Shown: positions 26,265-61,762, numbered from the stretch's first letter. The stretch: DNA of 64,000 nucleotides from a virus (IMGVR_UViG_3300050491_000011), one strand, 5' to 3'. The notes: generated by a model not told the origin, from the letters alone. Numbers and translations are program-made.

Positions 26265-26277
26265 GACCGTGGAGGTC
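26265..26277 (+). promoter_or_regulatory. SD hairpin GACC-GTGGA-GGTC
   Basis: 4-bp stem, ATG 26281. Confidence 0.8.
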
Positions 26278-26280
26278 AAG

Positions 26281-26574
26281 ATGTCGTATGGAGACAAGTT
26301 CAGCTACGACGAAGATTTCGTCGCTCTTTCATCAGATCTAGGTCTGGCGGTACAGGAGCTACGAGATAAGCGTAACGAACTGAACGAGAGCTACAGGTTG
26401 TTAGGAGCGGAGCGCATGACGATGCGCTTGCAAGGCTTAAGGACGGATGAGATTGATATTAAGATCTCGGAAGTATTGGGGGCAATCCGTGAGATTGGAG
26501 CTAAGATTGATTCCACTCAGTCCGCCCACTTAAGTTACTTGCGAAACTGTCAGGTTGGTTATACTGACAGGTAG
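26281..26574 (+). CDS. coiled-coil hypothetical protein
   Basis: SD hairpin then ATG 26281. Confidence 0.75.
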   Translation: MSYGDKFSYDEDFVALSSDLGLAVQELRDKRNELNESYRLLGAERMTMRLQGLRTDEIDIKISEVLGAIREIGAKIDSTQSAHLSYLRNCQVGYTDR

Positions 26575-26580
26575 CTGTAG

Positions 26581-26611
26581 GAGACGGGGGTAACACCCCG
26601 TCTTTTTTTTT
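26581..26611 (+). terminator. intrinsic terminator
   Basis: AGACGGGG/CCCCGTCT + T run. Confidence 0.85.
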
Positions 26612-26630
26612 GTCTGAATAATCGTAATGA

Positions 26631-26650
26631 AAAAAGTTATGGTCACACAT
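26631..26650 (+). promoter_or_regulatory. putative early promoter (GGTCACACAT)
   Basis: recurrent motif. Confidence 0.55.
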
Positions 26651-26710
26651 AGTCAGATTAGTGTTCCGCAACATTTAGTGGAACTAATCGACTATTAAAG
26701 GACTATAGCC

Positions 26711-26893
26711 ATGCTTACATTTCTGAGCAACCTGTTTGACAGCAATACCGAAACCCGCGATAAAGCTCGCAACGATCTACGTATCGCAAAGAACTGCTTT
26801 GAACGAGCAATGCGCAATCACGGCATTAACTCAAAAGAAGCAAACCACTGGGCAGCGAAAGCTGACGAAGCTGAGAAAGCCCTGGGTCTGTAA
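26711..26893 (+). CDS. hypothetical protein, paralog of 25972-26190
   Basis: AAGGA RBS; FERAMRNHGINSKEANHW. Confidence 0.75.
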   Translation: MLTFLSNLFDSNTETRDKARNDLRIAKNCFERAMRNHGINSKEANHWAAKADEAEKALGL

Positions 26894-26912
26894 CCCAGAA
26901 GGATGCAACAAG

Positions 26913-27083
26913 ATGAACTTTAAACTCATCGTTACGACAGTCTCATTAACTGCCGCTGGAATAGCGGCTTCTTATGCTGCGTACCGAATAGTGAAGAAGT
27001 CCCGTGAGGAAGGTACTCCAGTCCTCACGGTTATTGTGCAAGCCTACAACACCACCGTTGATGAAATCCGCAACAAGATCTAA
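26913..27083 (+). CDS. small membrane-anchored protein
   Basis: AAGGA RBS before ATG 26913; hydrophobic helix then YRIVKK. Confidence 0.65.
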   Translation: MNFKLIVTTVSLTAAGIAASYAAYRIVKKSREEGTPVLTVIVQAYNTTVDEIRNKI

Positions 27084-27093
27084 ATACCCTAAC

Positions 27094-27106
27094 GACCGAG
27101 GAGGTC
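27094..27106 (+). promoter_or_regulatory. SD hairpin GACC-GAGGA-GGTC
   Basis: ATG 27110. Confidence 0.8.
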
Positions 27107-27109
27107 AAC

Positions 27110-27364
27110 ATGAACACTGCATTCCACGAACAAGCAATCATCAAACTGAACAGCCGCTACATGGCTCTGCGTGATCGACTGAAGCTGATGGCTATCCAGC
27201 CTTGCGCTTGGCCAGTTGCTCAAGACCCGCTGTTCCAACGCTTCACTGATTTGATGCTGGATACTGATCCTACTCCTGACAACATCGAGCAGATCACTTC
27301 CGGCATCAATAAACTGATTCTGGTTATCGACGACGAAGTCGATGTCCTTGCTCTAGCTGATTAA
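27110..27364 (+). CDS. hypothetical protein
   Basis: SD hairpin upstream. Confidence 0.75.
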   Translation: MNTAFHEQAIIKLNSRYMALRDRLKLMAIQPCAWPVAQDPLFQRFTDLMLDTDPTPDNIEQITSGINKLILVIDDEVDVLALAD

Positions 27365-27411
27365 CTTAAACCCCCGGCGGGAATGTTCCCGCCAACCCCT
27401 TTCTTATAAAC

Positions 27412-27424
27412 GTCCGTGGAGGAC
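27412..27424 (+). promoter_or_regulatory. SD hairpin GTCC-GTGGA-GGAC (compensatory variant)
   Basis: ATG 27429. Confidence 0.8.
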
Positions 27425-27428
27425 TAGC

Positions 27429-30499: not shown

Positions 30500-33400
30500 T
30501 TACTTGATGCTGCGTTCCATCCACAACAGCAGAGCGATGATCGTGTCCTTAGCGATCGAGTCTGGATGAGGTAGGCTCTCCACGAAGACTTGACAAACTC
30601 CCTGGTGATACCACTTATCGTAGAAATCCATGTACAGGGGATTGTCGTAATCGTAGATAGCGTCACTGAAAGCAGAGCCATCCGAGTGATCCAACCAAGT
30701 GAACCAGTAGTCCTGCTCATACATCGGAAGGAGCTGCTCGATCAACTTAACTGCCTGTAGGATCTCAGCTTGTGTCAATGCCTTGATCGTATCAGGAGCC
30801 TTCACTGGGATTTCACGACGGTTAATCCAAATGTCGAACTCACGTTTCTCCACCTTTTCGGTGAAGACCATGTGGCCACCGATAGAGTGAGTAGGCTTCA
30901 GATCAGTGATAGGGGTTGGGATTTTGTTGAAGTCGGCGATAGCCTTCTCCCCCAGCTCCTTTACCTTATCCGCATCATCTTCATTGATCGCCGCGATGAT
31001 CTTCGGCTTCACATCCTTGTAGATCGATTGAACCGCGTCGTTCATGGCTTTCAGTTGACCATGGTACTTATCGCACATCCGACTAGCGTCATTCACAGCG
31101 CTACTGACAGCAGATACCGATCCCAAGAACTTACCGTTCACCGACAGTTCTTGAGCGATGCCACCACTTGATACCGTGGTATTGAAAGTCTGTTCCGACA
31201 ACCATTTACTGTTGCCGAAGTATTCTTTCAGGTATCTGTCGAGGCCTGTCGCATCGAGATGGTTGTGCTTTTCTTTAATGACGGCCTTGTTCTTGGCTTC
31301 ATCCATCTTCTTCTTTGGATCGCCGACGATCAGACTTTTAATGCTCTTCAGCATGTCGGAGAAACTTTCAAAGGAAGGTGGAATAACCTTGATCTGCACA
31401 GAGTAACCATGCAGAGCCTGCTTGATATCGACAGGCACGCAACGAACGATGTTCTTGCTGACTTCGCCTTGAGTCTTGTACTCGCCAGACAATCCATTGA
31501 CTGGGTTGTAGTTCGCCATCCAACCATCTTTGACGTCAGGTTTGATCGTGTACAGGAATACCTGCAACGAATGAACATCAGCGAGTGTCAGAGGTTCGTT
31601 CGACTCGATCTCGATACGACGGCCAGTGAACTTGTAGCGGTTGAGTTTGAACTTCTTCTCGATAGCCGAGGAGATACCCAACATCACCGCTGCATCTTTA
31701 TCGTCAGATGCGTAGAGCCATTCATTAGACTCGCACTTATCCCAACGAACGATCTCACCGCTACGCTGGAAGCCAGGCATCAACTCACCTTGCTTGAACG
31801 CAGAACCATGGTACAGATAGTTCGGCAGATCCACTTCTGGTTCTTCACGCATGGAGTGCGGCGCAACGGTGTCGCTCACTTCGCGGCTATAAGCAGCCGA
31901 CTGAGAGTTCCAGCCTTCGCCACCACCACGATGCATGTCGCCTTGGAAGACACCAAGCAGATCAGCAACGAACCCAGCCAGATCAGACATGAAGTCGAAC
32001 ACTTCCAGAGACAGAGTCTCAGTGTCCACGTTCTTGATGCCGAGGATAGATGCGGTCATTTCAGCCGACCACGTCAGGATGTCGTTACTGCGAGTGGAGA
32101 TGTTTGGAGCATCGCCAGTATCCAGCAAGAAATCGAAGACGAATACTTCACTGTCTTGACCCAAGCGGGCAGCACGAGCGATTGTCTGTGTGCGAATCGC
32201 ATCACGGAACGGTTGGTTCAACATCAGGATGGTGTTGGCTACTGTCAACGGAACGGCAGTTGACAGACTCTGGAACGTAGCCACCAGAGGATTGAGATCC
32301 TCATCCTTGTAGTACTTGGCCACGATGGTTGGTAAGTCCTTGTTGGTCTCACCGTAAACCTTCGCTGGGGTATACCCATCGTGGTACAGTTTGTCGGCAG
32401 CAGCTTCCAGCACTTCAACGTAACTGGTGAAGACCAGCGTCTTCTTCTTAGCCGCATCGATATACTTCTCAAGATCGATGTGTGCCAGCATGTCCAGGTG
32501 GCATGCACTGCGAGCCTTACCAAGCACCCCGCCGAGTGCTTCACCCATGATCTTCAACTTGACATATTTAACAACGCTGCGGGCACCTTTGAACTCAGCT
32601 TTCAGAGAACCATTCAGCTGCGGCATGATGGTCTTCAGCTCGTACCGATTACAGAGCTGAGCCTCAGCCTTCATGGTCATCGGATCAAATCCGCCAGATA
32701 CAGTTGCAAAAGCAGATCGATAAGCATTGAACTCACGACGATCAAGATCAGTACGAAGAGTCTTCTCAAATTCATTGAGACCTTCCTTGTACTTATCTTC
32801 GTAGAACTTCCGGTTCTTCTCGTAGTAGTCCCTGCGTTCATCAATGAACTTACGCATCCGAGCGCCGATGGCTTCCAACGTATAGTCGTTACCATTAGGC
32901 ATCTTCACCATGACCTGTTCCACAGTCACCACTGTGTCTACCACGTCCTGTTTAGGAACGTGATACTTCAGGTGACCGATACGGTTACGGAGAATGTCGT
33001 TTGCGCGCTTAGCATCCTTGCCGTAGATCTTACGGAAGGCTTCTTCGCAGTTGTCATCAAAGTACGGATCGACACACTTAAGGAAAGGAATACATTCCGA
33101 TCCCATCGCTTGGATTGGTGTGCCAGACATCCAGAGGCAGTAAGCAATAGTCGGCATCTTACACATCTCGACCAAGAGCTGGGTGCGGTCGGCAGCAAGA
33201 CGGTTGAAGTTGTGCGACTCGTCGACGATGATCATGGCGTCTTTGAAGTCACGAGGGTTGGCTTTAACGAAATCGAAGATCGTTTGGATCGACTCGTAGT
33301 GGCAAACGTAGAAGTGCTCGTCCAGCGTCGGGAGACGACCTTCAGTACTCACCCAGTAACGACGCTTGGTCATCATGATGTCTTGGATGGTATCTTTCCA

Positions 33401-34020: not shown

Positions 34021-34040
34021 GTTTTATAGGCACACATAAT
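34021..34040 (+). promoter_or_regulatory. putative early promoter (GGCACACAT)
   Basis: recurrent motif in divergent intergenic region. Confidence 0.45.
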
Positions 34041-34060: not shown

Positions 34061-34073
34061 GACTGAGGAAGTC
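34061..34073 (+). promoter_or_regulatory. SD hairpin GACT-GAGGA-AGTC (compensatory variant)
   Basis: ATG 34077. Confidence 0.8.
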
Positions 34074-37952: not shown

Positions 37953-38040
37953 AGTCAAATTAATTACAGTCACACATAGCGAGAGTACATACACACAACG
38001 ATATCCATTCCGGATACGTTAAACGACCGTGGAGGTCAAC
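37953..38040 (+). repeat. promoter-leader module, copy 1
   Basis: 25-bp exact match AGTCAAATTAATTACAGTCACACAT with 59207-59231, plus shared AACGATATC..GATACGTT hairpin and SD hairpin. Confidence 0.85.
38025..38037 (+). promoter_or_regulatory. SD hairpin GACC-GTGGA-GGTC
   Basis: ATG 38041. Confidence 0.8.
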
Positions 38041-38443: not shown

Positions 38444-38456
38444 GACCGAGGAGGTC
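38444..38456 (+). promoter_or_regulatory. SD hairpin GACC-GAGGA-GGTC
   Basis: ATG 38460. Confidence 0.8.
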
Positions 38457-39187: not shown

Positions 39188-39200
39188 GCCCGAGGAGGGC
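39188..39200 (+). promoter_or_regulatory. SD hairpin GCCC-GAGGA-GGGC (compensatory variant)
   Basis: ATG 39207. Confidence 0.8.
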
Positions 39201-45696: not shown

Positions 45697-45701
45697 GAGA
45701 G

Positions 45702-46799: not shown

Positions 46800-46809
46800 A
46801 TTGAATCCC

Positions 46810-47352: not shown

Positions 47353-47354
47353 GA

Positions 47355-48464: not shown

Positions 48465-48476
48465 GATTGGGCTCCT

Positions 48477-49157: not shown

Positions 49158-49167
49158 GGACTACTCC

Positions 49168-50136: not shown

Positions 50137-50153
50137 GATTATAAAACCTCTTA

Positions 50154-51200: not shown

Positions 51201-51204
51201 GATA

Positions 51205-51582: not shown

Positions 51583-51594
51583 ATTCCCAATTAA

Positions 51595-52089
51595 TTAGAA
51601 GGCCTGCAACGTGTTACCGTTGAATGCAGTGGCGATGTCAGGATAGCCGCCGAACTTCAGAGTAGCGGAGCCTGTCCAACCGAGATGGTTAGGACCAACC
51701 TCAATCTTGACGTTAACCTTACCGTCTGCGGTAAAGCTCGGGTTATCAACCAACTCACTCACAAGGAATGGAACTCGAGTGTAGGCGAAGACGATAGGAA
51801 CCCACGTCGCTACTGGAGCTGCGTCTGGACAGACGCAGAGATTGAGGTTGAAGTTCTCCAGCGGTTGCAGTGGAATGCGATCGTAGAAGACCGTCGTGAA
51901 ACCAACCGTCTTGGTGGACGCTGGAGCTGAGTTCACTTGAATGGCAGTGTTCTTGCCGTACTTGGTAACCTCCGCGCCTGTCGCTGCACGAGGAGTACCG
52001 AAGACAACGTCGGCTTCTACAAGCGATAGACCAGAAGCTACGTTGATCATCGCGACAAGGTCAGCCGCACTAGATACGAAAATAGTCAT
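51595..52089 (-). CDS. adaptor-family virion protein (short)
   Basis: VFYDRIPL. Confidence 0.75.
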   Translation of the reverse strand: MTIFVSSAADLVAMINVASGLSLVEADVVFGTPRAATGAEVTKYGKNTAIQVNSAPASTKTVGFTTVFYDRIPLQPLENFNLNLCVCPDAAPVATWVPIVFAYTRVPFLVSELVDNPSFTADGKVNVKIEVGPNHLGWTGSATLKFGGYPDIATAFNGNTLQAF

Positions 52090-52097
52090 GGCGGACC

Positions 52098-52997: not shown

Positions 52998-53051
52998 GAG
53001 TATTCTCCCAATGGAAGTAGCAGACGGGTGTTGCCACCCGTCTGCATCCAC

Positions 53052-53930: not shown

Positions 53931-53941
53931 TGTTTCTATCC

Positions 53942-54883
53942 TCAGACGTTGAAGTGGACGTAGTTCCGACCAGGGCCGAAGTCAGCCAGCATGGACTCAG
54001 GAGTTTCCCACGTCAACAGGCGGTTGAAGTATTCAGAGTTCGCCTCTGGGTACTTCGTCGATGGAAGAGTGACGACTTCGAAGACGTTGTTCGGTACGCC
54101 GTTCCATGCAGCGTTGATCGGGAAGGCCGTACCCAAATCGGCGTTGAGCTGACCGAACACGAAGTTGAGGAACTGTGCCGAGAGTGGGTAGTTCCCGAAC
54201 ACAACGAAGCTGTTTGGGTAACCACTCCATGGGTTAGTGGCCAGACGCCCACTCCAATCGTACGCGTACGCGGCGTTACTCATGATCGGACGACGCTCAC
54301 CAGTGAAGTCGTTACCGCCTGGGTACATACGTGCATTCAGGTCAGTCACGGTGATCATGGAGCTGAGGTCTTGTGGAGCACCTTTCCACTTCAGCGCGAA
54401 CGACCCGGTGTACGCCAAGCTTGTAGCCTTGGTAGCCACGGTAACGGTACGGGTATAGAAGCCATCTTCCAGAGTCGAGCCACGGGTGATGTTCTGATCC
54501 ACCACGTCGTCTTGAGTCAGGTTGATACCGTACTTCGCATTGATCAGCGGAAGCAGACTGTACACCGAGAACACAACTGCACCAGCGCCAGCAGCGGCAC
54601 CTTGGTTAGCCGAGTAGCGTTCGATCTGGATCGTGATACTGCGGAACAAGACAGCCATGTCGCGACGGCGATAGTTAACTTCCTTACGACCGATGAAATC
54701 GGCGTTGGGGAGCGAGTTCAGCATGATCTTGGTGTTCATTGCCGAGTTGCCTGGAACAGTAGCTGGCGCAGGCACCCCCAGAAGAACGTTGGTCTTCGTC
54801 ACTGGAATCCAATCAGGACCAGCGTTTGCCAAGTTGATAAGGTCATAAACCTCATCGATAGGCGGTTTGCTAAAAATAGGCAT
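53942..54883 (-). CDS. adaptor-family virion protein (long)
   Basis: VNYRRRDM ... YVHFN; close to 52098 paralog (LYPGGNDF). Confidence 0.8.
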   Translation of the reverse strand: MPIFSKPPIDEVYDLINLANAGPDWIPVTKTNVLLGVPAPATVPGNSAMNTKIMLNSLPNADFIGRKEVNYRRRDMAVLFRSITIQIERYSANQGAAAGAGAVVFSVYSLLPLINAKYGINLTQDDVVDQNITRGSTLEDGFYTRTVTVATKATSLAYTGSFALKWKGAPQDLSSMITVTDLNARMYPGGNDFTGERRPIMSNAAYAYDWSGRLATNPWSGYPNSFVVFGNYPLSAQFLNFVFGQLNADLGTAFPINAAWNGVPNNVFEVVTLPSTKYPEANSEYFNRLLTWETPESMLADFGPGRNYVHFNV

Positions 54884-54888
54884 CTTGA

Positions 54889-55689
54889 TTAAGCCTCTTC
54901 GAGGATGTTGTAGTGAAGATACATCGGCCCGATCAGCTGGTCGCTGTAGAAGCCAGCCTGAACAACCACGCGGTCAAAGGCAGGGTTACTATCTTCGATA
55001 GCCGAGGTCGGATAGTCGGCAATATAACCTTCAGCCCAACCGGGAATACCCAGATACGAGCAGGCGTTCTGAAGAGCAGCCCAATCGGTGTAACGCGCCC
55101 CAGGATTTGTAGGCTTGATCGCATCACGAAGACTGGTGAAGTCAACATCCCACGTAACCATCCGAGCGGACATCTTCGAATTCACCGGGTCCGGGTGGTT
55201 ACGGACTGGGAGGATCTTGATGCCAACGATGCTATCAAGCAAGGACTTGGCGTGGGTGATGTTGATTACCGCTGAGCCGATGAAGCCACGACTGGTTGCC
55301 CGCGCGGTCAAGGTCAGTGTGTCAGCCTCGCCATTGGCCGGATTAGGCGGCGTAAACGGTACGAAGTCATCAACGGTAAGGAATAGGCCGAACGCGCCGT
55401 TAATCAGCGATACGATGCTTTCCTGCGTGAACACTTCTTCACTACGAACGTCCGCATCCTGAATGATGTCGCCAAGCACCAGACGTTTGTAATAGATGTC
55501 GACTTCGTTGTAGTAACCACGCCCCGGAACCGACTTCACAGTCAGCTTGGTATTCGCAGTTTCCGTATCAACGACTTCGAGGTCTATCAGGCTGACGTTC
55601 ATTTCAGTGAACGTCTTCGGCGGCACGTTGAGGATGTTTAGTTCCTCAATGATTTTACTGGTAGCAGACGGAACTGGAGGAACGGCCAT
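54889..55689 (-). CDS. adaptor-family virion protein (long)
   Basis: IYYKRLVL ... YLHYN. Confidence 0.8.
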   Translation of the reverse strand: MAVPPVPSATSKIIEELNILNVPPKTFTEMNVSLIDLEVVDTETANTKLTVKSVPGRGYYNEVDIYYKRLVLGDIIQDADVRSEEVFTQESIVSLINGAFGLFLTVDDFVPFTPPNPANGEADTLTLTARATSRGFIGSAVINITHAKSLLDSIVGIKILPVRNHPDPVNSKMSARMVTWDVDFTSLRDAIKPTNPGARYTDWAALQNACSYLGIPGWAEGYIADYPTSAIEDSNPAFDRVVVQAGFYSDQLIGPMYLHYNILEEA

Positions 55690-55700
55690 GACTACACCTC

Positions 55701-56534
55701 TTAATCCACAATCGGATCGTTAAAGTGAAGAACCAGTTGGCCAGACCAACCCAACGACTTGGTGTCATCGAGATCGACGATGATCACGTTGTCATAGTCC
55801 TGGTTGGAGATAGGTTCGCCAGAGGTCGGCCCTACGTAGCTAACGACCGCCCCATCCAAGGAGAAGCGGGAAGCGCCGACGAGCTGCCACGCATCGCCAG
55901 AGGCCGCCACAAGGGCATCCTTGATGATACCGAGACTATCTTGTCCAGTAACCACCGTACTTAGAGTAGCGTAGTAGCCACTCATGTTACGCCAGTAGGA
56001 ATAACCGACCGAAGCGTAAGGTTTGGTGATCTGAGCCGAAGGGTAGTTCAAGCCCGGCAGTTGAGTGACGGTGATCACGTCAGATAGAGGCTGTGCCCCC
56101 AGAGCGAGACTGAACGTAACTGTGCCAACCCAACCCATGCTATCAGCTTCAGCCACCAGCGTAACTTCACCAGCACCGTTCACCAAGGTCAATGGCGAAG
56201 AGACGATGTCGCCCGGCTCAAAGCCGATACCGTGCCGTTTGTTCAGCATGGCGACGAAGTCGTCAGTGGTACTGATGTCGTAGCCCTTGATGTTCGAGCT
56301 GATCAGGATCAGAAGATCCGCCAGATCCAAACGCTTATAGCGGATGGTAGTCGAACCATCGTAAGGACTCAGTGGGTTGAGTGCAGTAACCAGCAACGAA
56401 GTGTTAGTGCCTGATGCGTCCGGAGCAACTGCCGTAGGCGTACCGAACGTATACTCACCCGCAATCAGTTCGACGTTGTTTAACGTCTTGATCGCTTCGA
56501 GGATGGCATCAAGCGGTCTTTTATACAAAGCCAT
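55701..56534 (-). CDS. adaptor-family virion protein (long)
   Basis: IRYKRLDL ... LHFNDP. Confidence 0.8.
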   Translation of the reverse strand: MALYKRPLDAILEAIKTLNNVELIAGEYTFGTPTAVAPDASGTNTSLLVTALNPLSPYDGSTTIRYKRLDLADLLILISSNIKGYDISTTDDFVAMLNKRHGIGFEPGDIVSSPLTLVNGAGEVTLVAEADSMGWVGTVTFSLALGAQPLSDVITVTQLPGLNYPSAQITKPYASVGYSYWRNMSGYYATLSTVVTGQDSLGIIKDALVAASGDAWQLVGASRFSLDGAVVSYVGPTSGEPISNQDYDNVIIVDLDDTKSLGWSGQLVLHFNDPIVD

Positions 56535-56546
56535 ATCGAAACCTCT

Positions 56547-57344
56547 TTATGACCGGTTGAAGTGAATATACGCGTCGCCTTTGTAGCCGTTGATGTCAAC
56601 GCCCGTCTGGATGCAGACGTTGGTGAAATCTTGGTTGGCTTCAGGTACGTCTTTGGTCGAATACGACTTCACTGATTGAGTCATGAACACAGGGATGTCT
56701 GGGAAGCCCATCTCAATGAACATCTTCTGGACAGCAGGCCAGTTGGTCCAACCGTACCAAGCAACGCCCAGAATGTTGGAGTAGTACGAGAAGTCCAGGC
56801 CCCACGTCGCCATGTCAAGGGAAGGTTTACCCAAGTCCAATGGATTGTGGTGGGATAGGACGTCCAGCTCTTTCTCCGCGATCGCTACTTCAAGCAGCGG
56901 ACGGATACGGATGAACTGGATAACAAACGTGCCTTCATAACCCAATGAGTTCGGGCTAGCCTTGATCACCAAGTTCGCCTGTTCGTTACCACCCAGCCAG
57001 TCAATCGGCTCGTTGATGATATCGATAGGTTGTAGGTTCAGGCCAAGACGTTTGTTCAGAATTGGGAGCAACCGATGGATGGTTGTCTGACCCAAGTCTT
57101 GGATGATCGGACGCACACCACCAAAGACCTTATCGAAGTTGATGCGACGATATTTCCACCGCGCGTATCCTTCGTAGTCCTCGTTGTTGTACATCGTAAC
57201 GGAGGGAAGTTCGATCGATCCATCAGCCAACGACTTCACGTTGCCGTAGTAAAGACCGCCTACTTCCAGCGGTACAGCCAAAGCGTTCTGTTCGTTGATG
57301 AGACCGACCAGCGCTTCTTCCGACGATCCCGGTAAAAGTAACAT
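56547..57344 (-). CDS. adaptor-family virion protein (long)
   Basis: WKYRRINF ... YIHFN. Confidence 0.8.
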   Translation of the reverse strand: MLLLPGSSEEALVGLINEQNALAVPLEVGGLYYGNVKSLADGSIELPSVTMYNNEDYEGYARWKYRRINFDKVFGGVRPIIQDLGQTTIHRLLPILNKRLGLNLQPIDIINEPIDWLGGNEQANLVIKASPNSLGYEGTFVIQFIRIRPLLEVAIAEKELDVLSHHNPLDLGKPSLDMATWGLDFSYYSNILGVAWYGWTNWPAVQKMFIEMGFPDIPVFMTQSVKSYSTKDVPEANQDFTNVCIQTGVDINGYKGDAYIHFNRS

Positions 57345-57449
57345 AAGGCATCTCCTGGAGTCGAAGCTGACTTAAACGGTAAATAAGAGAGGACGAGGCC
57401 GAAACCCCGCCCTCTCAGATTTATTTGTATTAAGGCAGTGGTGAAGACC

Positions 57450-57974
57450 TTACGCTACTGGAACGTAGGTCAGACCGTTCAGTTCAGTCACGGTCAGGTA
57501 TTCAGCCAGGTCGATCTCGTCGGACTTCAGATGGAAGGTCAGGCTGCCGATATACGCCAGCGAGTCAGCCTTCGCCACGACTTGTACGTCGTGAGTTTCG
57601 TTCGGGATACCACCGGTGAAGGTTGGCAGCACGCCGTCGACGAAGTCTTCAGCCTGGAGATTGATGTTCAGGAGAGCGTTCAGCTCTGGGATGATGTCAG
57701 CGATGTTGACCGCGTCACCCAGGTTGAAGGTTGCGTCCTTGCCCGATGGCACGAGGATCGCGGTGTTCAGGTGCAGACGGTTGTACTTGAACGTCTGGCT
57801 ACCGACGAAACCCGAACCAGCTTTGGCGGTCAGGGTCACGGAGGTGTTCTTGTCGCCAGTGCTGTTTACGGTTGGCAGACCGATGTCGACGACGCCGTAG
57901 GTGATACCTTTGCCGTTGTCGGAGTTGATAAGGTCAAGGACTACGACCTTGCTTGCTTTAGTCATATCGCTCAT
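57450..57974 (-). CDS. adaptor-family virion protein (short)
   Basis: FKYNRLHL ... LNGLTY. Confidence 0.8.
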   Translation of the reverse strand: MSDMTKASKVVVLDLINSDNGKGITYGVVDIGLPTVNSTGDKNTSVTLTAKAGSGFVGSQTFKYNRLHLNTAILVPSGKDATFNLGDAVNIADIIPELNALLNINLQAEDFVDGVLPTFTGGIPNETHDVQVVAKADSLAYIGSLTFHLKSDEIDLAEYLTVTELNGLTYVPVA

Positions 57975-58045
57975 TACAGGTACTCTTCAGTAAGTAAGGA
58001 CAAGTCGGCCTTGGCCAACCACATAGAATTCTACTTATACACGGA

Positions 58046-58573
58046 TCAAACAACCGGCTCGTAAGTCAAGCCATTCAGATCAGTGACAGGTAGATACGCG
58101 CTCAGAGGAATCAATTCAGGCTGCACTTCAAGAATCAATGAGCCAAGGTACACCATCGAATCGAACGTCACCTTGAGTTCAATGTTCGCCGACAGATTTG
58201 CACTGAGATCTGGCAGAGGTTTGTCGATGATCTTGCTTGCTGTCAGGTTGATGTTCAACCGTTCGTTAATAGCCGGCAAGAGATCGGACAGGTTCACTTC
58301 ATCCGTGATAGTGAACTCTAGCGACGTCGTATCAGGATCTACGAAGTCTACTAGTCTTACTCGGTTGTAATAGAAGCTTTGACTACCTTCATAGCCTCTG
58401 CCCGCGACAGCCGTACCAACCATCAGGGTATTACGATTCACCCCAGCAATAGGGGTATAAACGCTCGGAGTGCCAAAGGTCACCTGACTGGACGTTAAGG
58501 TCCTGTTCTGGTTATCTTGGCGAATGAGATCGATAACGACGTCTATCTCACTCCGTGTGTAGTCAATGGCCAT
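58046..58573 (-). CDS. adaptor-family virion protein (short)
   Basis: FYYNRVRL ... LNGLTY. Confidence 0.8.
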   Translation of the reverse strand: MAIDYTRSEIDVVIDLIRQDNQNRTLTSSQVTFGTPSVYTPIAGVNRNTLMVGTAVAGRGYEGSQSFYYNRVRLVDFVDPDTTSLEFTITDEVNLSDLLPAINERLNINLTASKIIDKPLPDLSANLSANIELKVTFDSMVYLGSLILEVQPELIPLSAYLPVTDLNGLTYEPVV

Positions 58574-58616
58574 ACACGAGTTCTCGTTAAGGAATCAGGA
58601 GGTCATAGAATTTCGG

Positions 58617-59156
58617 TCAGTGGACTAACTGATCGTAAACTCCGCCGTCGGTCATTGGCTCGCCCCCAGGCGCTACAAGGCCGTTCAAAACGTTGTTCGG
58701 GAATTGTGACGCTAGGGTGAGGACTCCTTGGCTTGCGTTGAGTACAAGCGTTCCTAGCCACACGAAAGACCTATTCGAAACGGTGATGGTGACAACGCCG
58801 TCCACGTTGGTGTAATCTTTGATATCGTTCAGGCTCAATACGAAGTTGTACTTGAGCTTCAGGGCATTCACCACAGACGCAGGTGTGATCTCTCCCTGTA
58901 CTTCGACACTGACATCGGGCTCGCCAATATCGATGAATGCTTGCTGCATATCCAAGCGGTTGTAATAGTAGACGTAACTGCCGGTGATCTGCCTACCACG
59001 AGCCGTAGCACCCACCTTCGTATTCTTTCCATCGAACTCGCCCAGCACCAAACCGGTGAAAGACAGGTTCGACGTACTAAGCGTTACGCCGTATCCTTCC
59101 AAGATGGCCTGATTCGCTACCTGAATCATCTCGGCCAGCATTTCCTCACCGGTCAT
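58617..59156 (-). CDS. adaptor-family virion protein (short), first gene of late operon
   Basis: YYYNRLDM ... LNGL. Confidence 0.8.
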   Translation of the reverse strand: MTGEEMLAEMIQVANQAILEGYGVTLSTSNLSFTGLVLGEFDGKNTKVGATARGRQITGSYVYYYNRLDMQQAFIDIGEPDVSVEVQGEITPASVVNALKLKYNFVLSLNDIKDYTNVDGVVTITVSNRSFVWLGTLVLNASQGVLTLASQFPNNVLNGLVAPGGEPMTDGGVYDQLVH

Positions 59157-59206: not shown

Positions 59207-59294
59207 AGTCAAATTAATTACAGTCACACATTGTCTCGGTACAACATAACAACGATATCAATTCCTGATACGTTGCAACGACCGAGGAGGTCAC
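59207..59294 (+). repeat. promoter-leader module, copy 2
   Basis: as copy 1. Confidence 0.85.
59280..59292 (+). promoter_or_regulatory. SD hairpin GACC-GAGGA-GGTC
   Basis: ATG 59295. Confidence 0.8.
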
Positions 59295-59615
59295 ATGGAC
59301 AATAGTAAACTCGCTAACACGTTGATGGGTATGGCTACTGAGCTGATGATTCAGTTCAATCGTACCACTGCGTTGAGTGAGACACTGCACAACCAGTACA
59401 TGGAGCGTACGTCTGTAAAAGGACGGCACGAGTGCAGTAAGCCGGTGGATGCAAATGCCGAGGAGTTGGCTATTATCAGCAACTCTTTAGGTAAGCGGGT
59501 TCTTGAGATCGCTAATCTCTTGCGTCTGCTGCATCCGGCATACGAAGTCAAGATACCTGAAAGGGTTAAGTTGACTTACGTATCCACTGAGCTCGAGCTA
59601 ACGCCTCGATCTTAG
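59295..59615 (+). CDS. hypothetical protein
   Basis: SD hairpin upstream. Confidence 0.75.
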   Translation: MDNSKLANTLMGMATELMIQFNRTTALSETLHNQYMERTSVKGRHECSKPVDANAEELAIISNSLGKRVLEIANLLRLLHPAYEVKIPERVKLTYVSTELELTPRS

Positions 59616-59660
59616 TCGGCCGGCTACAGACGGGTGGAATTCTCCACCCGTTACCATAAC

Positions 59661-59673
59661 GACTGAGGAAGTC
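59661..59673 (+). promoter_or_regulatory. SD hairpin GACT-GAGGA-AGTC
   Basis: ATG 59678. Confidence 0.8.
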
Positions 59674-59677
59674 TAAC

Positions 59678-60007
59678 ATGATGAACATCCCTACATTCTT
59701 GAAGCTGTGTGCAGTAGTTGCTACCGTTGGTGCAGCAGCAGGTGCTACAGTTGGTTACTTCGAAAAGAAAGAACGCGATCGTCAGGCTGAGGTTGTTAAG
59801 CGCAATATCAAAGACCTCACCGCTCTCTGCAATGACATCATTGACGTCCACGGCCAGAAGGCTCTCAGCGCTAACCAGCTGGCGAACCTGCTGGAGATAC
59901 GTCGGCGCATCGGTTCCGACTTCAGCAACATGAAGTACCACGAGATCATGGTTCTTCAAAGCCAGATCGAAGTGATCTACAACGTTCTTAATTCTGCTCG
60001 CAAATAA
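59678..60007 (+). CDS. membrane-anchored protein, paralog of 60026-60364
   Basis: SD hairpin; TM then KK; ALS..QL..L. Confidence 0.8.
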   Translation: MMNIPTFLKLCAVVATVGAAAGATVGYFEKKERDRQAEVVKRNIKDLTALCNDIIDVHGQKALSANQLANLLEIRRRIGSDFSNMKYHEIMVLQSQIEVIYNVLNSARK

Positions 60008-60008
60008 C

Positions 60009-60021
60009 GACCGTGGAGGTC
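60009..60021 (+). promoter_or_regulatory. SD hairpin GACC-GTGGA-GGTC
   Basis: ATG 60026. Confidence 0.8.
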
Positions 60022-60025
60022 TGTC

Positions 60026-60364
60026 ATGATTTCTGATGTACTCAAGATAGCAGCAGGCGTAACAATACTCGCCAGTGCCATTGGTGGAGCGATCTATTAC
60101 GTCACCAAGAAGGATAACGAGAACAAGTTGGCAAGTATCAAACGGCAGGTGGGCGATAACCTGGACTTCATCGACGCTTACATCGCGTTGATGACCAGCG
60201 ATGCGCTGTCTGTGAAGCAGCTGGGTGAGTTGGAGAAATTGCGTGAAGCGCACCAGACTCAATTCGCTGGAATCCCTTACAACGTGATGGTCGTTATGTT
60301 GGCTCAGTCCAACGGTATCTACATGACCGTCCGTGATGCTGCAAAGGCACATCAGAAGAAATGA
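60026..60364 (+). CDS. membrane-anchored protein, paralog of 59678-60007
   Basis: SD hairpin; TM then KK; ALS..QL..L. Confidence 0.8.
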   Translation: MISDVLKIAAGVTILASAIGGAIYYVTKKDNENKLASIKRQVGDNLDFIDAYIALMTSDALSVKQLGELEKLREAHQTQFAGIPYNVMVVMLAQSNGIYMTVRDAAKAHQKK

Positions 60365-60450
60365 TCGGGAAAGACCCTGATCTACCTACCCGATGAACCG
60401 CGGATCTTCAAAGAAGCTTTCCGCTGGCAATACCAACCCGAACCCGAATC

Positions 60451-60463
60451 GACTGAGGAAGTC
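60451..60463 (+). promoter_or_regulatory. SD hairpin GACT-GAGGA-AGTC
   Basis: ATG 60469. Confidence 0.8.
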
Positions 60464-60468
60464 CTACC

Positions 60469-60999
60469 ATGCAAGATATCCAAAAGCAAATCGAAGATGA
60501 CGTTAGCAAAGTCATTCGCGACAAGAACACTCTCGCAGCTATCGACGCTGCTATTGAAGTTGGTGCGGACTACGAAACAAAGTTCCACGCCAACTGGATG
60601 ATCGCTCGTGGTTTCTATAACCTCGGCATCGTCACCGCGCTGTTCCATGCTGCTGATCGCGCCATCGAACGGATCGCTAAAGATCCTGAAGAACTCGGTT
60701 GCAAGATGGCATTCATCGACAAAGATGGACGCGAGTGCATCATCATCGCAGGGCACCATGGCTACGTGTTCATGTATGCCAATGGTTACGTCTCTATCCA
60801 TAGCGGGTATCACTGCGATAACCTCGATGTCTTGATGGCCCTTGACGGAATTAGCTTAAAGCAAACATTCCGTGACCTCATGGTACAAGGCTTGCCATTC
60901 ATGGGGCTGATTCCTATCCTCGATTCGATTGTAGAAAACCGATCGAACCAGGAAGAGATGACTCGCCTCCACGCAAAATTCAGAAGCTACTTGGCTTAA
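60469..60999 (+). CDS. hypothetical protein
   Basis: SD hairpin upstream. Confidence 0.8.
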   Translation: MQDIQKQIEDDVSKVIRDKNTLAAIDAAIEVGADYETKFHANWMIARGFYNLGIVTALFHAADRAIERIAKDPEELGCKMAFIDKDGRECIIIAGHHGYVFMYANGYVSIHSGYHCDNLDVLMALDGISLKQTFRDLMVQGLPFMGLIPILDSIVENRSNQEEMTRLHAKFRSYLA

Positions 61000-61009
61000 G
61001 GAAACAATC

Positions 61010-61363
61010 ATGTCACTCGTATCTGTAACCATCATGGGTAACGACCTGGTTCTCGGTTCTCAATCCGACCCACCGGTTGGTCACCGGATCGGCACAGTTC
61101 CGTTGAAGTTTGATAACGGTAAGACCGAGCATATCTGCGTGTTCGGTTCTGTCCACATCTACACCGATTCGAGAGAGCGTGATCACTTCGAGGCAGAGCT
61201 GCGTAAGTTCTGCCAAGATCCTGATACCGTTCAGAAGGTTCTCGACATCACCGGGCAATCTGCCTACGCTAAACGTTTCAATCCATCGCGGTCCCAAACG
61301 GATCGCGGCTGGTATCGTGCCGGTAAAACCGGTGGTCTAGAAACCCAACATAGCTGCGCGTAG
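61010..61363 (+). CDS. hypothetical protein
   Basis: AAGGA RBS. Confidence 0.7.
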   Translation: MSLVSVTIMGNDLVLGSQSDPPVGHRIGTVPLKFDNGKTEHICVFGSVHIYTDSRERDHFEAELRKFCQDPDTVQKVLDITGQSAYAKRFNPSRSQTDRGWYRAGKTGGLETQHSCA

Positions 61364-61375
61364 GAGTGGTCCTGA

Positions 61376-61732
61376 ATGCGTGGACGATGTGAGTTGACCA
61401 CAGATAGTAAACGCAGCAAAGAGCAGATGCTTAACAAACTGATGCGGATCAACCTCGCAATCGGTAAAGATCCTAGGTTCGCTGATCTACTGAATGACGA
61501 GATGTTTATTCAGAATCTGAAAGAGGCGCAAAAATACCTCAATCTGATGATCAACGATAATACTCTAATGGGTCGTGATCTTCGACACGTAATCACGTTA
61601 TACCACGCACATGTTCACGAATGGCTAGACGCTATACAAACCCATTGCGACTATAACCAAATCCTCGAAATAAATTTCAGGACTACGACTCTGGGTGAGT
61701 TGATCGAAGCCTTAGAACCGACTACAAAGTAA
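61376..61732 (+). CDS. hypothetical protein (alternative ATG 61427)
   Basis: AGGAG upstream of 61376. Confidence 0.65.
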   Translation: MRGRCELTTDSKRSKEQMLNKLMRINLAIGKDPRFADLLNDEMFIQNLKEAQKYLNLMINDNTLMGRDLRHVITLYHAHVHEWLDAIQTHCDYNQILEINFRTTTLGELIEALEPTTK

Positions 61733-61749
61733 TACCCATTATACCCAAC

Positions 61750-61762
61750 GACCGTGGAGGTC
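61750..61762 (+). promoter_or_regulatory. SD hairpin GACC-GTGGA-GGTC
   Basis: ATG 61766. Confidence 0.8.

What the first reader, a model, noticed from the sequence alone, without database searches (positions are those of the whole stretch)
26265..61762. Covarying G(A/T)GGA-loop hairpin over the Shine-Dalgarno of 12 genes: candidate phage translational operator regulon
Seen: 12 + strand genes (starts 26281, 27110, 27429, 34077, 38041, 38460, 39207, 59295, 59678, 60026, 60469, 61766) have A(A/T)C-[4-nt arm]-G(A/T)GGA-[complementary arm]-N2-6-ATG. The arms change in compensatory pairs (GACC/GGTC x7, GACT/AGTC x3, GCCC/GGGC, GTCC/GGAC), which points to selection on RNA structure, not just on an SD. 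I did not see it before enzyme genes (tmk, dcd) or late structural genes; it clusters downstream of the CACACAT promoter motif. Known: CsrA/RsmA proteins bind GGA in hairpin loops at SDs but prefer ANGGA, and T4 RegB cuts GGAG in SDs of early mRNAs. Inference: a 4-bp stem is weak alone, so a protein or RNA ligand probably recognises it. The G in place of the A of ANGGA argues for a phage-encoded or altered-specificity reader that switches these genes together.
Basis: partly seen in the sequence, partly recalled or inferred. Interest (0 to 1): 0.85.

Follow-up and report, generated by a model that had tools for sequence, protein, structure and literature searches.

The report
Early-gene ribosome-site hairpin, jumbo phage
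An uncultured soil jumbo phage and six relatives put the ribosome-binding site of about 17 small early genes inside the same tiny RNA hairpin; compensating mutations keep it paired, which points to a shared, still unidentified control of early protein synthesis.

Summary
All 12 sites exist. The window has 13 perfect N4-G(A/T)GGA-N4' hairpins on the + strand, 12 of them 2-6 nt before an ATG; dinucleotide shuffles give 0.65 and 0.07. The window lies in a 188-kb phiKZ-like (nucleus-forming type) phage record from rhizosphere or soil, with 17 such sites in all.

Six related metagenomic genomes carry 8-20 sites each, always on the coding strand. They use at least 12 different complementary arm pairs. 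Orthologous genes keep the hairpin through double, compensating changes and never show a single uncompensated change.

Only this geometry (4 bp, 5-nt loop) is enriched at gene starts. The genes are unrelated ORFans that lie just downstream of a strand-specific ATTACAGTCAYACAT motif, probably the early promoter. One relative uses UAGGA loops at the same orthologous genes, so loop identity is lineage-specific.

No phage CsrA, RegB, RegA, S1 or S21 homologue was found, and there is no Rfam match. The nearest cultured phages lack the motif.

My best reading (about 45%) is a translational operator read by a co-evolving trans factor, acting as repressor or RegB-like nuclease. A purely cis-acting ribosome-site structure is the main rival. 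The closest precedent is the unexplained start-associated sequences of Cluster K mycobacteriophages. This scan has noted other mini-hairpins at ribosome sites in unrelated phages.

The parts
26265..26277 (+). SD hairpin GACC-GTGGA-GGTC, 3 nt before the ATG at 26281 (97-aa ORFan)
   Evidence: 31.5 bits; pair probability 0.94
27094..27106 (+). SD hairpin GACC-GAGGA-GGTC before the ATG at 27110 (84 aa). The orthologue in G001 has GACT/AGTC.
27412..27424 (+). SD hairpin GTCC-GTGGA-GGAC before the ATG at 27429 (177 aa)
34061..34073 (+). SD hairpin GACT-GAGGA-AGTC before the ATG at 34077 (182 aa). The orthologue in G001 has GACC/GGTC, a compensated change.
38025..38037 (+). SD hairpin GACC-GTGGA-GGTC before the ATG at 38041 (130 aa). 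Orthologues have ACCC/GGGT (G004), GTCC-TAGGA-GGAC (G007) and GTCC-GAGGA-GGAC (G008, G009).
38444..38456 (+). SD hairpin GACC-GAGGA-GGTC before the ATG at 38460 (128 aa; 33%-identical paralogue of the previous gene). The G001 orthologue has GTCC/GGAC.
39188..39200 (+). SD hairpin GCCC-GAGGA-GGGC, 6 nt before the ATG at 39207 (148 aa)
   Evidence: -6.6 kcal/mol, pair probability 0.99
59280..59292 (+). SD hairpin GACC-GAGGA-GGTC before the ATG at 59295 (106 aa); first gene after a promoter motif
59661..59673 (+). SD hairpin GACT-GAGGA-AGTC before the ATG at 59678 (109 aa)
60009..60021 (+). SD hairpin GACC-GTGGA-GGTC before the ATG at 60026 (112 aa). The G001 orthologue has GTCC/GGAC.
60451..60463 (+). 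SD hairpin GACT-GAGGA-AGTC before the ATG at 60469 (176 aa). Orthologues have GTCC/GGAC (G004) and GACC-TAGGA-GGTC (G007).
61750..61762 (+). SD hairpin GACC-GTGGA-GGTC before the ATG at 61766 (172-aa AP2-like protein). A hairpin is kept in all 7 genomes, with ACCC/GGGT and GTCC/GGAC arms and a GGGA tetraloop in G007.
37964..37977 (+). Promoter-like motif TTACAGTCACACAT (core of a roughly 40-nt conserved element), 64 nt upstream of the hairpin gene start at 38041
59218..59231 (+). Promoter-like motif TTACAGTCACACAT heading the operon of five hairpin genes (59295-62284)
34024..34037 (+). Promoter-like motif TTATAGGCACACAT upstream of the hairpin gene at 34077
25916..25929 (+). Promoter-like motif TTATGGTCATACAT upstream of a 59-aa ORF and then the hairpin gene at 26281
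26637..26650 (+). Promoter-like motif TTATGGTCACACAT upstream of a 60-aa ORF and then the hairpin genes at 27110 and 27429
61766..62284 (+). Hairpin-controlled gene for a basic (pI about 9.1 for the G001 orthologue), clade-specific protein with an AP2-like nucleic-acid-binding domain; the fold model suggests a second similar unit. It is a low-confidence candidate for an autoregulated reader.

Best explanation
The 13-nt element is an RNA hairpin in the mRNA. It has a 4-bp stem of free but complementary sequence and a G(A/U)GGA pentaloop. It holds the Shine-Dalgarno sequence (GGAGG or GAGGA) of a discrete set of small genes in the phage's probable early operons. The GGA is displayed unpaired in the loop, and the next 1-2 purines of the SD are locked in the stem.

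I infer that it is a translational operator. A trans-acting factor whose specificity co-evolves with the loop recognises the hairpin and controls these genes together. The factor is most likely phage-encoded. The most likely action is shutting the genes off after the early phase, either by blocking the 30S subunit or by cutting the SD as T4 RegB does. Without the factor, the hairpin is weak enough for the 30S subunit to open it through the exposed GGA.

Shown here: the structure is under selection, it sits at the SD, it has one discrete geometry, it is tied to one promoter class, and its loop identity is lineage-specific.

Inferred: that it acts as RNA rather than ssDNA, that the genes are early, that a reader exists, and the direction of regulation.
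For: 1. Pairing is selected.
- Of 21 reciprocal-best orthologues of the G000 hairpin genes, 18 keep a perfect hairpin; it is 19 once one mis-called start is corrected.
- Eight orthologue pairs differ by double compensating changes, and none by a single uncompensated change, while the flanks and proteins diverge to 25-50% identity.
- On 60 aligned sites, 3 of 4 pairs covary. 32 cells are changed on both sides, against 6.5 in shuffles. The covariation score is 0.47, against 0.135 in shuffles and at most 0.09 for slid registers. That alignment was selected on pairing.
- The distribution of arm pairing is bimodal.

2. The geometry is specific. Only 4-bp stems with 5-nt GWGGA loops are enriched at starts, and a covariance model finds no intermediates.

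3. It is not a relic of duplication. The 17 genes fall into at least 14 unrelated ORFan families. Hairpins also appear or disappear at orthologous genes between sub-lineages, always with the same design.

4. Loop identity is lineage-specific. UAGGA makes up 8 of 9 loops in genome G007 but 1 of 93 in the other six genomes. This includes at least 2 orthologous genes that carry GWGGA elsewhere. The arms differ between copies, so gene conversion cannot explain this. A reader with a shifted specificity can.

5. It behaves as a regulon. 81 of 103 hairpin genes, against 340 of 1289 other + strand genes, lie within 3 kb downstream of the strand-specific ATTACAGTCAYACAT element (Fisher p = 5e-26). In phiKZ-like phages, a conserved AT-rich motif found upstream of presumed early operons is the early promoter used by the virion RNA polymerase (PMC7598289).

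6. The hairpin is predicted to form. Energies are -4 to -8 kcal/mol in a 25-nt context, where it is the minimum-free-energy fold.

7. The geometry matches the best S1-independent substrate of T4 RegB, with GGA unpaired and the fourth G constrained. RegB also targets early-gene SDs (PMC3014915).
Against: - No reader was found. There are no Pfam matches to CsrA, RegB, RegA, S1 or S21 in the phage genomes.
- The only conserved, small, basic + strand proteins are an AP2-like protein, an Arc-like ribbon-helix-helix protein and a GNAT. The first two belong to families best known as DNA binders.
- No transcriptome or binding data exist.
- The assignment to the early class rests on analogy.
- G at loop position 1 could be structural (a sheared G-A closure) rather than a protein contact. 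U-A in G007 would also close the loop.
- 5 of the 12 window sites have a pair probability of 0.4 or less in a 113-nt context.
- A strong SD (GGAGGU) offset by a weak hairpin could simply be a cis design.
Confidence: 0.45

Rival explanations
1. It is a purely cis-acting ribosome-site module with no dedicated reader. The hairpin presents GGA as a toehold for the anti-SD. It tunes a very strong SD (GGAGGU) down to a set level. It also shields the ribosome site of frequently exchanged accessory genes from pairing with variable neighbouring sequence, or from RNases. This would make it a portable, context-independent RBS for early-operon genes.
For: - The SD inside the hairpin is always strong (GGAGG in 52 of 60 sites, GAGGA in the rest) and sits at normal spacing.
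- The stem is kept short. A fifth pair is possible in 6 of 60 sites, against 11-16 of 60 in control columns, so it can be opened.
- The 5' flank contains no G at the three positions next to the stem and is A/C-rich, as in a standby site.
- No reader gene was found.
- Non-hairpin genes inside the same operons mostly have gaps of 12 nt or less and could be translationally coupled, so the hairpin may simply be the early operons' stand-alone RBS type.
Against: - A thermodynamic or SD-only need does not explain why one loop length and one loop sequence are used exclusively.
- It does not explain why new hairpins arise with the same design.
- It does not explain why one lineage switched nearly all its sites to UAGGA while the other six essentially never use it.
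Confidence: 0.3
2. The hairpins are binding sites for the host's CsrA/RsmA-family protein. Either the host regulator gates early phage translation, or abundant early mRNAs soak up CsrA.
For: - GGA in the loop of a short hairpin over an SD is the hallmark of CsrA/RsmA targets (established knowledge).
- About half of the loops contain AGGA.
- Each genome has about 17-20 sites.
Against: - The A two bases before GGA in the A(N)GGA consensus is replaced by an invariant G (60 of 60), or by U in G007.
- The loop has 5 nt rather than 6.
- Second GGA motifs, which a CsrA dimer needs for bridging, are not enriched near hairpin genes. They average 0.42 against 0.57 per 50 nt upstream, and 14% against 34% of genes have one in the first 40 nt of the coding sequence.
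- The motif is absent from the nearest cultured phages tested, whose recorded hosts include Pseudomonas, Xanthomonas and Burkholderia; these genera are generally held to have CsrA/RsmA-family regulators (my own knowledge, not tested here).
- The host is unknown.
Confidence: 0.12
3. It is a DNA-level signal. The inverted repeat would extrude or fold in single-stranded DNA and act as a promoter element (as with N4 virion-polymerase hairpin promoters), a pause site, or a nicking or priming site. Its match to an SD would be secondary.
For: - Covariation cannot tell RNA from ssDNA.
- The centre of the loop lies about 10-11 nt before the start codon, a distance like that from the hairpin to +1 in N4 early promoters (my own knowledge).
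Against: - The invariant loop plus 3' arm spells a canonical SD at canonical spacing before an ORF at every site.
- Sites occur before internal genes of operons that already have a promoter motif.
- All sites are on the coding strand.
- The single non-Watson-Crick member has G-U on the sense strand, which would be C-A on the other strand.
- A 4-bp stem is very weak for extrusion from duplex DNA.
Confidence: 0.05

Closest known systems
Start-associated sequences (SAS) of Cluster K mycobacteriophages (Pope et al. 2011, PMC3203893; read)
   Same: Both are 13-nt strand-specific elements, 3-7 nt before the start codon of 11-19 genes per genome. Both are confined to the non-structural part of the genome and contain the SD core. 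Both have complementary outer bases (GGG...CCC), sit before unrelated gene families, and are absent from the host. The function of SAS is unknown, and its authors left open whether a host or phage factor binds.
   Different: SAS is one conserved sequence (GGGATAGGAGCCC) with 3 complementary outer bases and a 7-nt centre; no covariation was reported. Here the arms are 4 bp and free to vary while staying complementary (at least 12 arm pairs), and the loop is 5 nt. The phages are unrelated (actinobacterial siphovirus against phiKZ-like jumbo phage). There is also no ESAS-type upstream repeat here.
T4 RegB endoribonuclease and its GGAG targets in early-gene Shine-Dalgarno sequences (review PMC3014915)
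   Same: Both involve a phage-wide set of early-gene SDs that contain GGAG and are marked for coordinated inactivation. [quoted passage not shown]
   Different: No RegB homologue was found (PF10715 best hit 13 bits, below cut-off, in 1 of 4 genomes). T4 targets need no hairpin, and secondary structure usually protects them. 8 of 60 sites here read GGAA. The 3' consensus GGAGRAYARAA is only partly matched. No cleavage data exist.
CsrA/RsmA/RsmE binding sites (GGA in hairpin loops over SDs; CsrB/RsmZ repeats)
   Same: GGA is exposed in the loop of a short hairpin that overlaps the SD, and there are many targets.
   Different: G or U replaces the consensus A of A(N)GGA. The loop is a pentaloop rather than a hexaloop, and there is no second GGA site. 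No phage CsrA was found (PF02599). Binding was not tested.
Single-gene phage translational operators (MS2/PP7 coat protein-replicase hairpin; T4 gp43 operator)
   Same: A small hairpin at the ribosome site is bound by a phage protein to repress translation, and hairpin and protein co-evolve between related phages.
   Different: Those operators control one gene and have different loops and bulges. Here there are about 17 copies per genome before unrelated genes.
Lambda/P22 boxB hairpins (GNRNA pentaloop bound by the arginine-rich motif of N)
   Same: G(A/U)GGA fits the GNRNA pentaloop pattern on a short stem (my own knowledge of boxB; not tested structurally).
   Different: boxB lies in nut sites after promoters, 1-2 per operon, not on ribosome sites. 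The UAGGA variant does not fit GNRNA. No N-like protein was sought.
PeSL (promoter-early stem-loop) cassettes of T4-type phages
   Same: A repeated regulatory module precedes novel accessory ORFs in plastic genome regions.
   Different: PeSLs are longer promoter-plus-terminator modules thought to mediate recombination. They are not SD hairpins.

Membership tests
CsrA/RsmA target site | GGA in the loop of a hairpin overlapping the SD | tested here: met
   Loop GWGGA, 4-bp stem, and the minimum-free-energy fold in local context
CsrA/RsmA target site | A(N)GGA: a conserved A two bases 5' of GGA, in a hexaloop ANGGAN | tested here: not met
   G at that position in 60 of 60 sites, U in genome G007, and a 5-nt loop
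CsrA/RsmA target site | A second GGA site nearby for dimer bridging | tested here: not met
   GGA is not enriched, and is in fact depleted, within 50 nt upstream and in the first 40 nt of the coding sequence
CsrA/RsmA target site | A cognate CsrA-family protein that binds it | tested here: inconclusive
   No PF02599 match in four phage genomes. The host is unknown and binding cannot be tested here.
T4 RegB system | GGAG/U within the SD of early transcripts | tested here: met
   GGAG in 52 of 60 sites and GGAA in 8 of 60. The genes lie in operons behind the putative early promoter. The early class is inferred.
T4 RegB system | A RegB (PF10715) endoribonuclease gene | tested here: not met
   The best six-frame hit was 13.3 bits against a 27-bit cut-off, in 1 of 4 genomes. 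Control genomes give similar noise.
T4 RegB system | Cleavage between G and A of GGAG | not testable with these tools
   No RNA runs hold this phage
Cluster K start-associated sequence (SAS) | A 13-bp element 3-7 bp upstream of starts, in one orientation, before non-structural genes, with 11-19 copies | tested here: met
   13 nt, 1-6 nt before the start, coding strand only, 8-20 copies per genome, ORFan early-operon genes
Cluster K start-associated sequence (SAS) | The consensus sequence GGGATAGGAGCCC | tested here: not met
   The consensus here is GACC-GWGGA-GGTC with variable arms. The analogy is functional only.
Any Rfam family | A score at or above the family's gathering threshold | tested here: not met
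   No matches in the 64-kb window on either strand
phiKZ-like (nucleus-forming type) jumbo phage | Homology of core genes to phiKZ-like phages and a jumbo genome | tested here: met
   The helicase (30500-33955, - strand) matches phiKZ-related jumbo phages of Pseudomonas, Xanthomonas, Klebsiella, Erwinia and others at 38-45% identity. Complete relatives are 243-267 kb, some with terminal repeats. Chimallin and the RNA polymerase genes were not checked by me.

The most novel reading that the evidence does not exclude
This clade of uncultured nucleus-forming jumbo phages has a dedicated post-transcriptional early-gene switch. A clade-specific phage protein binds or cuts a 13-nt SD hairpin on about 17-20 early mRNAs. 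The one concrete candidate is the basic AP2-like protein, which itself carries the hairpin. Protein and loop would have co-evolved, from GWGGA to UAGGA in one lineage. That would be a new operator-reader pair.
Probability: 0.25. Interest if true: 0.8.

Novelty: new variant of a known kind. Interest (0 to 1): 0.6.

Why it matters
Little is known about how phiKZ-like phages control translation. Their early genes are mostly unknown host-takeover proteins, and how early expression is shut off after the phage nucleus forms is an open question.

A short, portable and statistically unambiguous RNA signal that marks a subset of early genes gives a direct experimental handle.

It also gives the first covariation-backed structural reading of a start-associated sequence. 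That class was described in mycobacteriophages in 2011 and never explained. Together with other mini-hairpins noted by this scan, it suggests that gene-set-specific ribosome-site hairpins are a recurrent phage strategy.

Tried and rejected
- Near-identity search of 8 kb against 50,697 cultured phage records: no match.
- Motif scan of the five nearest cultured relatives by helicase (pPa_SNUABM_DT01, LucasX, Eowyn, FLC9, Noxifer): counts at control level. The whole DT01 genome has no enriched NNGGA-loop hairpin class.
- Rfam over the window: nothing.
- Six-frame Pfam searches of four or five phage genomes each for CsrA, RegB, RegA, S21 and S1: nothing above cut-off.
- Pfam on all 17 hairpin-gene products and PHROGs on 10 of them: no family.
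- Public sequencing runs: no RNA holder listed. The DNA holders are rhizosphere, soil and compost metagenomes.
- Search for a reader by phylogenetic profile: 43 proteins are shared by the five complete motif-bearing genomes and absent from DT01. Most are acidic or lie in - strand blocks.
- Two small basic proteins queried in the ESM Atlas gave no lead.
- Family A (the 130-aa hairpin genes) is acidic and only weakly matches unrelated PDB chains, so I dropped it as a reader candidate.
- Foldseek of the AP2-like model found no match at E 0.001 or below. The AP2 assignment rests on weak but concordant sequence-profile and fold hits.
- Host identification was not achieved.
- Duplication or gene conversion as the source of the repeats is rejected. 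The downstream proteins are unrelated and the arms differ between copies.
- Complex prediction was not used, because no protein-protein claim is made.

Full report
**What is in the window**

They have the stated arms, the A(A/T)C 5' flank, and 2-6 nt between the stem and an ATG. The + strand of the window holds 13 perfect N4-G(A/T)GGA-N4' inverted repeats, and 12 of them lie directly before an ATG-initiated ORF. The - strand holds 2, neither at a start. In 300 dinucleotide-preserving shuffles of the window the mean was 0.65 hairpins (maximum 3), and 0.07 with an ATG within 9 nt.

A covariance model built from 60 sites scores the twelve window sites at 21.5-32.8 bits. The next best window hit scores 13 bits. 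The model was built from these sites, so the informative part is the gap: the class is discrete, not the tail of a continuum.

**Where the window comes from**

The window is bases 97179-161178 of a 188,198-bp IMG/VR virus record, estimated 75% complete and 51% G+C. The 1151-aa helicase at 30500-33955 (- strand) matches phiKZ-related jumbo phages of Pseudomonas, Xanthomonas, Klebsiella, Serratia, Erwinia and Burkholderia at 38-45% identity. No cultured phage is close at the DNA level. Near-identical DNA occurs in rhizosphere, soil and compost metagenomes, and no RNA run holds it. The whole record has 17 hairpin ribosome sites; one of them has a GGCC-GGGGA-GGCC hairpin.

**Relatives**

A scan of IMG/VR for the motif, and then for a conserved 606-aa protein, brought in six related genomes, which I fetched whole.

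| Genome | Size | Status | Relationship |
|---|---|---|---|
| G001 | 254 kb | complete | about 84% mean protein identity to G000 |
| G004 | 258 kb | complete | about 48% mean protein identity |
| G002 | 154 kb | partial | about 44% mean protein identity |
| G008 | 267 kb | complete | 62% identity of the 606-aa marker protein |
| G009 | 264 kb | complete | 63% identity of the marker protein |
| G007 | 243 kb | complete | 64% identity of the marker protein |

Each genome has 8-20 hairpin ribosome sites, all on the coding strand just before starts. The arm pairs seen are GACC/GGTC, GTCC/GGAC, GACT/AGTC, GCCC/GGGC, GGCC/GGCC, ACCC/GGGT, TCCC/GGGA, TACT/AGTA, TACC/GGTA, AGCT/AGCT, GTCT/AGAC and TGCC/GGCA. 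One site has a G-U wobble (GGCT/AGTC).

The five nearest cultured relatives have the core motif only at control frequency. The complete genome of Pseudomonas phage pPa_SNUABM_DT01 has no enriched hairpin class of this kind. The element is therefore specific to this uncultured clade.

**Is pairing selected?**

Three tests do not depend on choosing paired sites.

First, I took every predicted start with GNGGA at SD distance and counted Watson-Crick pairs between the flanking tetranucleotides. The distribution is bimodal.

| Genome | 0 pairs | 1 | 2 | 3 | 4 |
|---|---|---|---|---|---|
| G000 | 6 | 8 | 11 | 2 | 16 |
| G001 | 11 | 18 | 13 | 1 | 16 |
| G004 | 9 | 11 | 10 | 2 | 18 |
| G002 | 5 | 7 | 5 | 3 | 8 |
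| G008 | 20 | 11 | 12 | 1 | 15 |
| G009 | 11 | 13 | 14 | 2 | 20 |

Second, I looked at all perfect 4-bp hairpins ending within 8 nt of a start in four genomes. Loop lengths 3, 4, 6, 7 and 8 occur at shuffle frequency. Loop length 5 occurs 92 times against 31.6 expected, and the excess is entirely GAGGA and GTGGA.

Third, I took the reciprocal-best orthologues of the G000 hairpin genes regardless of what lies upstream. 18 of 21 keep a perfect hairpin, or 19 after correcting one mis-called GTG start. Eight orthologue pairs differ by compensating double changes, for example GACT/AGTC to GACC/GGTC at 34061, GACC/GGTC to GTCC/GGAC at 38444 and 60009, and GACC/GGTC to ACCC/GGGT at 38025 and 61750. 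No pair differs by an uncompensated change, although the flanks and the proteins themselves have diverged to 25-50% identity.

On the 60-site alignment A1, three of four pairs covary. 32 cells are changed on both sides, against 6.5 in shuffles. The covariation score is 0.47, against 0.135 in shuffles and at most 0.09 for slid registers. That alignment was chosen for pairing, so its 100% pairing proves nothing, but the covariation figures stand.

**Anatomy**

The consensus is A-W-Y | G-N-C-Y | G-W-G-G-A | R-G-N-C | A/T. Positions C9, G11, G13, G14, A15 and G17 of the 25-nt alignment are invariant.

- The loop plus 3' arm spells GGAGG(U) in 52 of 60 sites. In the other 8 sites the 3' arm starts with A, and there the loop is always GAGGA. 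A functional SD is therefore always kept, at normal spacing (stem end to start 1-6 nt, mode 3-4).
- The three bases 5' of the stem never include G.
- A fifth pair would be possible in only 6 of 60 sites, against 11-16 of 60 for control columns. This is modest evidence that the stem is kept short.
- ViennaRNA gives -2.5 to -6.6 kcal/mol for the bare 13-mers and -4 to -8 kcal/mol in 25-nt contexts, where the hairpin is the minimum-free-energy fold.
- In 113-nt native contexts the four pairs form with probability 0.8 or more at 7 of the 12 window sites, and 0.1-0.4 at the other five.
- The flanks differ between sub-lineages. G000, G001 and G002 have AAC or ATC on the 5' side. G008 and G009 have YTA, TAA or TGA on the 5' side and AGYA on the 3' side. 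G004 is variable. The hairpin is the constant.

**Which genes**

The 17 products in this genome are 42-227 aa. None has a Pfam hit (17 tested) or a PHROGs hit (10 tested). They fall into at least 14 unrelated families, with only two paralogous pairs at about 30% identity. The repeats are therefore not leftovers of recent duplication.

All 17 lie within five genes (at most 2.6 kb) downstream of a roughly 40-nt strand-specific element whose core is ATTACAGTCAYACAT. That element occurs 10-23 times per genome, never on the other strand, and 45-90 nt before a gene. Over the seven genomes, 81 of 103 hairpin genes lie within 3 kb downstream of such an element, against 340 of 1289 other + strand genes (Fisher p = 5e-26).

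In phiKZ-like phages, a conserved AT-rich motif found upstream of presumed early operons has turned out to be the early promoter used by the virion RNA polymerase wherever it was tested (review PMC7598289). By that analogy the hairpin genes are early genes. This is an inference, because no expression data exist.

Within these operons, most non-hairpin genes follow the previous gene by 12 nt or less. Genes beyond T-rich, terminator-like runs have ordinary TAAGGAG-type sites.

**The lineage-specific loop**

Genome G007 is complete and about as distant from G001 by the marker protein (64% identity) as G008 and G009. It has almost no GWGGA hairpins. Instead it carries eight N4-TAGGA-N4' hairpins and one GGGGA hairpin before starts. 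At least two of them precede orthologues of genes that carry GWGGA hairpins in the other genomes (the families of 38041 and 60469). The orthologue of 61766 has a GTCC-GGGA-GGAC tetraloop version.

The loop census is TAGGA in 8 of 9 sites in G007 against 1 of 93 elsewhere. The arms differ from copy to copy, so homogenisation by gene conversion is not a credible cause. TAGGAG is also the commonest ordinary SD context in all these genomes, so mutation supplies it everywhere. A concerted change at dispersed, orthologous sites is what one expects when many sites track one reader whose specificity has shifted.

Hairpins have also been gained or lost at orthologous genes. The Arc-like gene and a 190-aa gene carry one only in G008 and G009, and the gained hairpins have the standard design.

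Six-frame profile searches found no CsrA, RegB, RegA, ribosomal S21 or S1 domain in the phage genomes. Rfam has no match in the window. Second GGA motifs near the hairpins, which a CsrA dimer would need for bridging, are not enriched and are in fact depleted.

Forty-three proteins are shared by the five complete motif-bearing genomes and absent from DT01. Among conserved proteins of 230 aa or less with pI 8.5 or more, only three are on the + strand:

- A 172-aa protein (window 61766-62284). The alignment profile weakly matches AP2 domains (E = 0.0096). In the AlphaFold model (mean pLDDT 72) the best Foldseek matches are AP2-domain proteins of the Toxoplasma mitoribosome and the Plasmodium SIP2 tandem AP2 (probability 1.0, but E only 5e-3 to 0.1).
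- An Arc-like ribbon-helix-helix protein (Pfam E = 1.4e-22).
- A GNAT acetyltransferase.

The AP2-like protein has no homologue in 50,697 cultured phage records. It is present in all seven genomes and itself carries the hairpin. That makes it the one concrete candidate for an autoregulated reader, though a weak one. It could equally be an early DNA-binding regulator.

**Mechanism**

What is shown:
- A selected hairpin of fixed geometry holds the SD.
- It marks a discrete gene set tied to one promoter class.
- Its loop identity is lineage-specific.

What I infer as most likely (about 45%): the hairpin is a translational operator for a co-evolving trans factor that switches these early genes together. 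The switch would most plausibly be off, by occluding the SD or by cutting it.

The T4 precedent is instructive. RegB inactivates early mRNAs by cutting GG^AG in their SDs. [quoted passage not shown] 2001). That is the predicted state of GGA|G here. [quoted passage not shown]

The main rival (about 30%) is a cis-only design: a strong SD offset by a weak, toehold-bearing hairpin that gives accessory early genes a context-independent ribosome site. It explains the strong SD, the short stem and the G-free flank. It does not explain the exclusive loop length and sequence, the repeated gain of the same design, or the UAGGA switch.

Host CsrA/RsmA (about 12%) fits the GGA-in-loop idea. It fails on the consensus A, the loop size and the second site.

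A DNA-level role (about 5%) is hard to reconcile with an SD at canonical spacing at every site and with sites before internal operon genes.

**Comparison with what is known**

The closest described phenomenon is the start-associated sequence of Cluster K mycobacteriophages. It is a 13-bp element, GGGATAGGAGCCC, 3-7 bp before the start of 11-19 non-structural genes. It occurs in one orientation, has complementary outer bases, and is of unknown function (PMC3203893).

The present element shares that logic but not the sequence. It has a longer, freely covarying stem and a 5-nt loop, and it occurs in an unrelated phage group. It also adds what SAS lacked: evidence from compensatory change that the pairing itself is selected. 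I therefore class it as a new variant of a known but unexplained kind.

Earlier notes of this scan report other covarying mini-hairpins at or near ribosome sites in unrelated phages and plasmids, including one with CsrA-like loops plus a phage CsrA-like gene. I did not verify those. They prompted the SAS comparison, which I checked in the paper, and the extra look for small CsrA-like proteins, which found nothing.

**Limits**

- Gene calls come from my own simple caller, and a few starts are mis-called.
- The promoter class is assigned by analogy.
- The host is unknown.
- No RNA, binding or cleavage data exist.
- The AP2 assignment is weak.

Noticed in passing
window 37964-37977, 59218-59231, 34024-34037, 25916-25929, 26637-26650, 15070-15085: There is a roughly 40-nt strand-specific promoter-like element (gtAgTcAAAnnnATTACAGTCAYACATtgt...GTAc). 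It occurs 10-23 times per genome in all seven relatives, never on the other strand, and 45-90 nt before a gene. It is probably the early promoter for the virion RNA polymerase of this clade.
   Followed up: partly
G007 (L124-L136), e.g. L134:17184-17588:- and L126:7575-8081:-: One complete relative uses N4-TAGGA-N4' hairpins instead of GWGGA at 8 gene starts, including orthologues of window genes 38041 and 60469. The orthologue of 61766 has a GGGA tetraloop version.
   Followed up: yes
window 61766-62284 (+): This 172-aa basic protein has weak but concordant AP2-domain signals: a PDB profile match at E = 0.0096, and top Foldseek matches to apicomplexan AP2 proteins, including RNA-bound mitoribosomal ones. 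The fold model shows two beta-sheet-plus-helix units. It is conserved in all seven genomes and has no homologue in cultured phages.
   Followed up: partly
G000:C1:72618-73010 (outside the window); G001 copy L074:1918-2310:+: The first gene behind one promoter motif encodes an Arc-like ribbon-helix-helix DNA-binding protein (Pfam PF03869, E = 1.4e-22). It carries the SD hairpin only in genomes G008 and G009.
   Followed up: partly
window 43955-59156 (- strand): A block of about 19 consecutive - strand genes (123-369 aa) with 2-20 nt gaps. Many belong to the set shared by the clade but absent from phage DT01. One relative's member (L065:1615-2298:-) matches DUF7941. They may be virion or tail-fibre paralogues. 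None has the hairpin.
   Followed up: no
window, first 40 nt of the hairpin-gene coding sequences: GGA trinucleotides are depleted at the start of hairpin-gene coding regions: 14% of these genes have at least one, against 34% of other genes. I did not control for composition.
   Followed up: no
window 36367-37209 region; G001 copy L077:2886-3317:+: A GNAT-family acetyltransferase (Pfam E about 1e-5) is among the clade-specific conserved basic proteins. The G000 gene call is longer (280 aa against 143 aa), and I did not resolve the difference.
   Followed up: no
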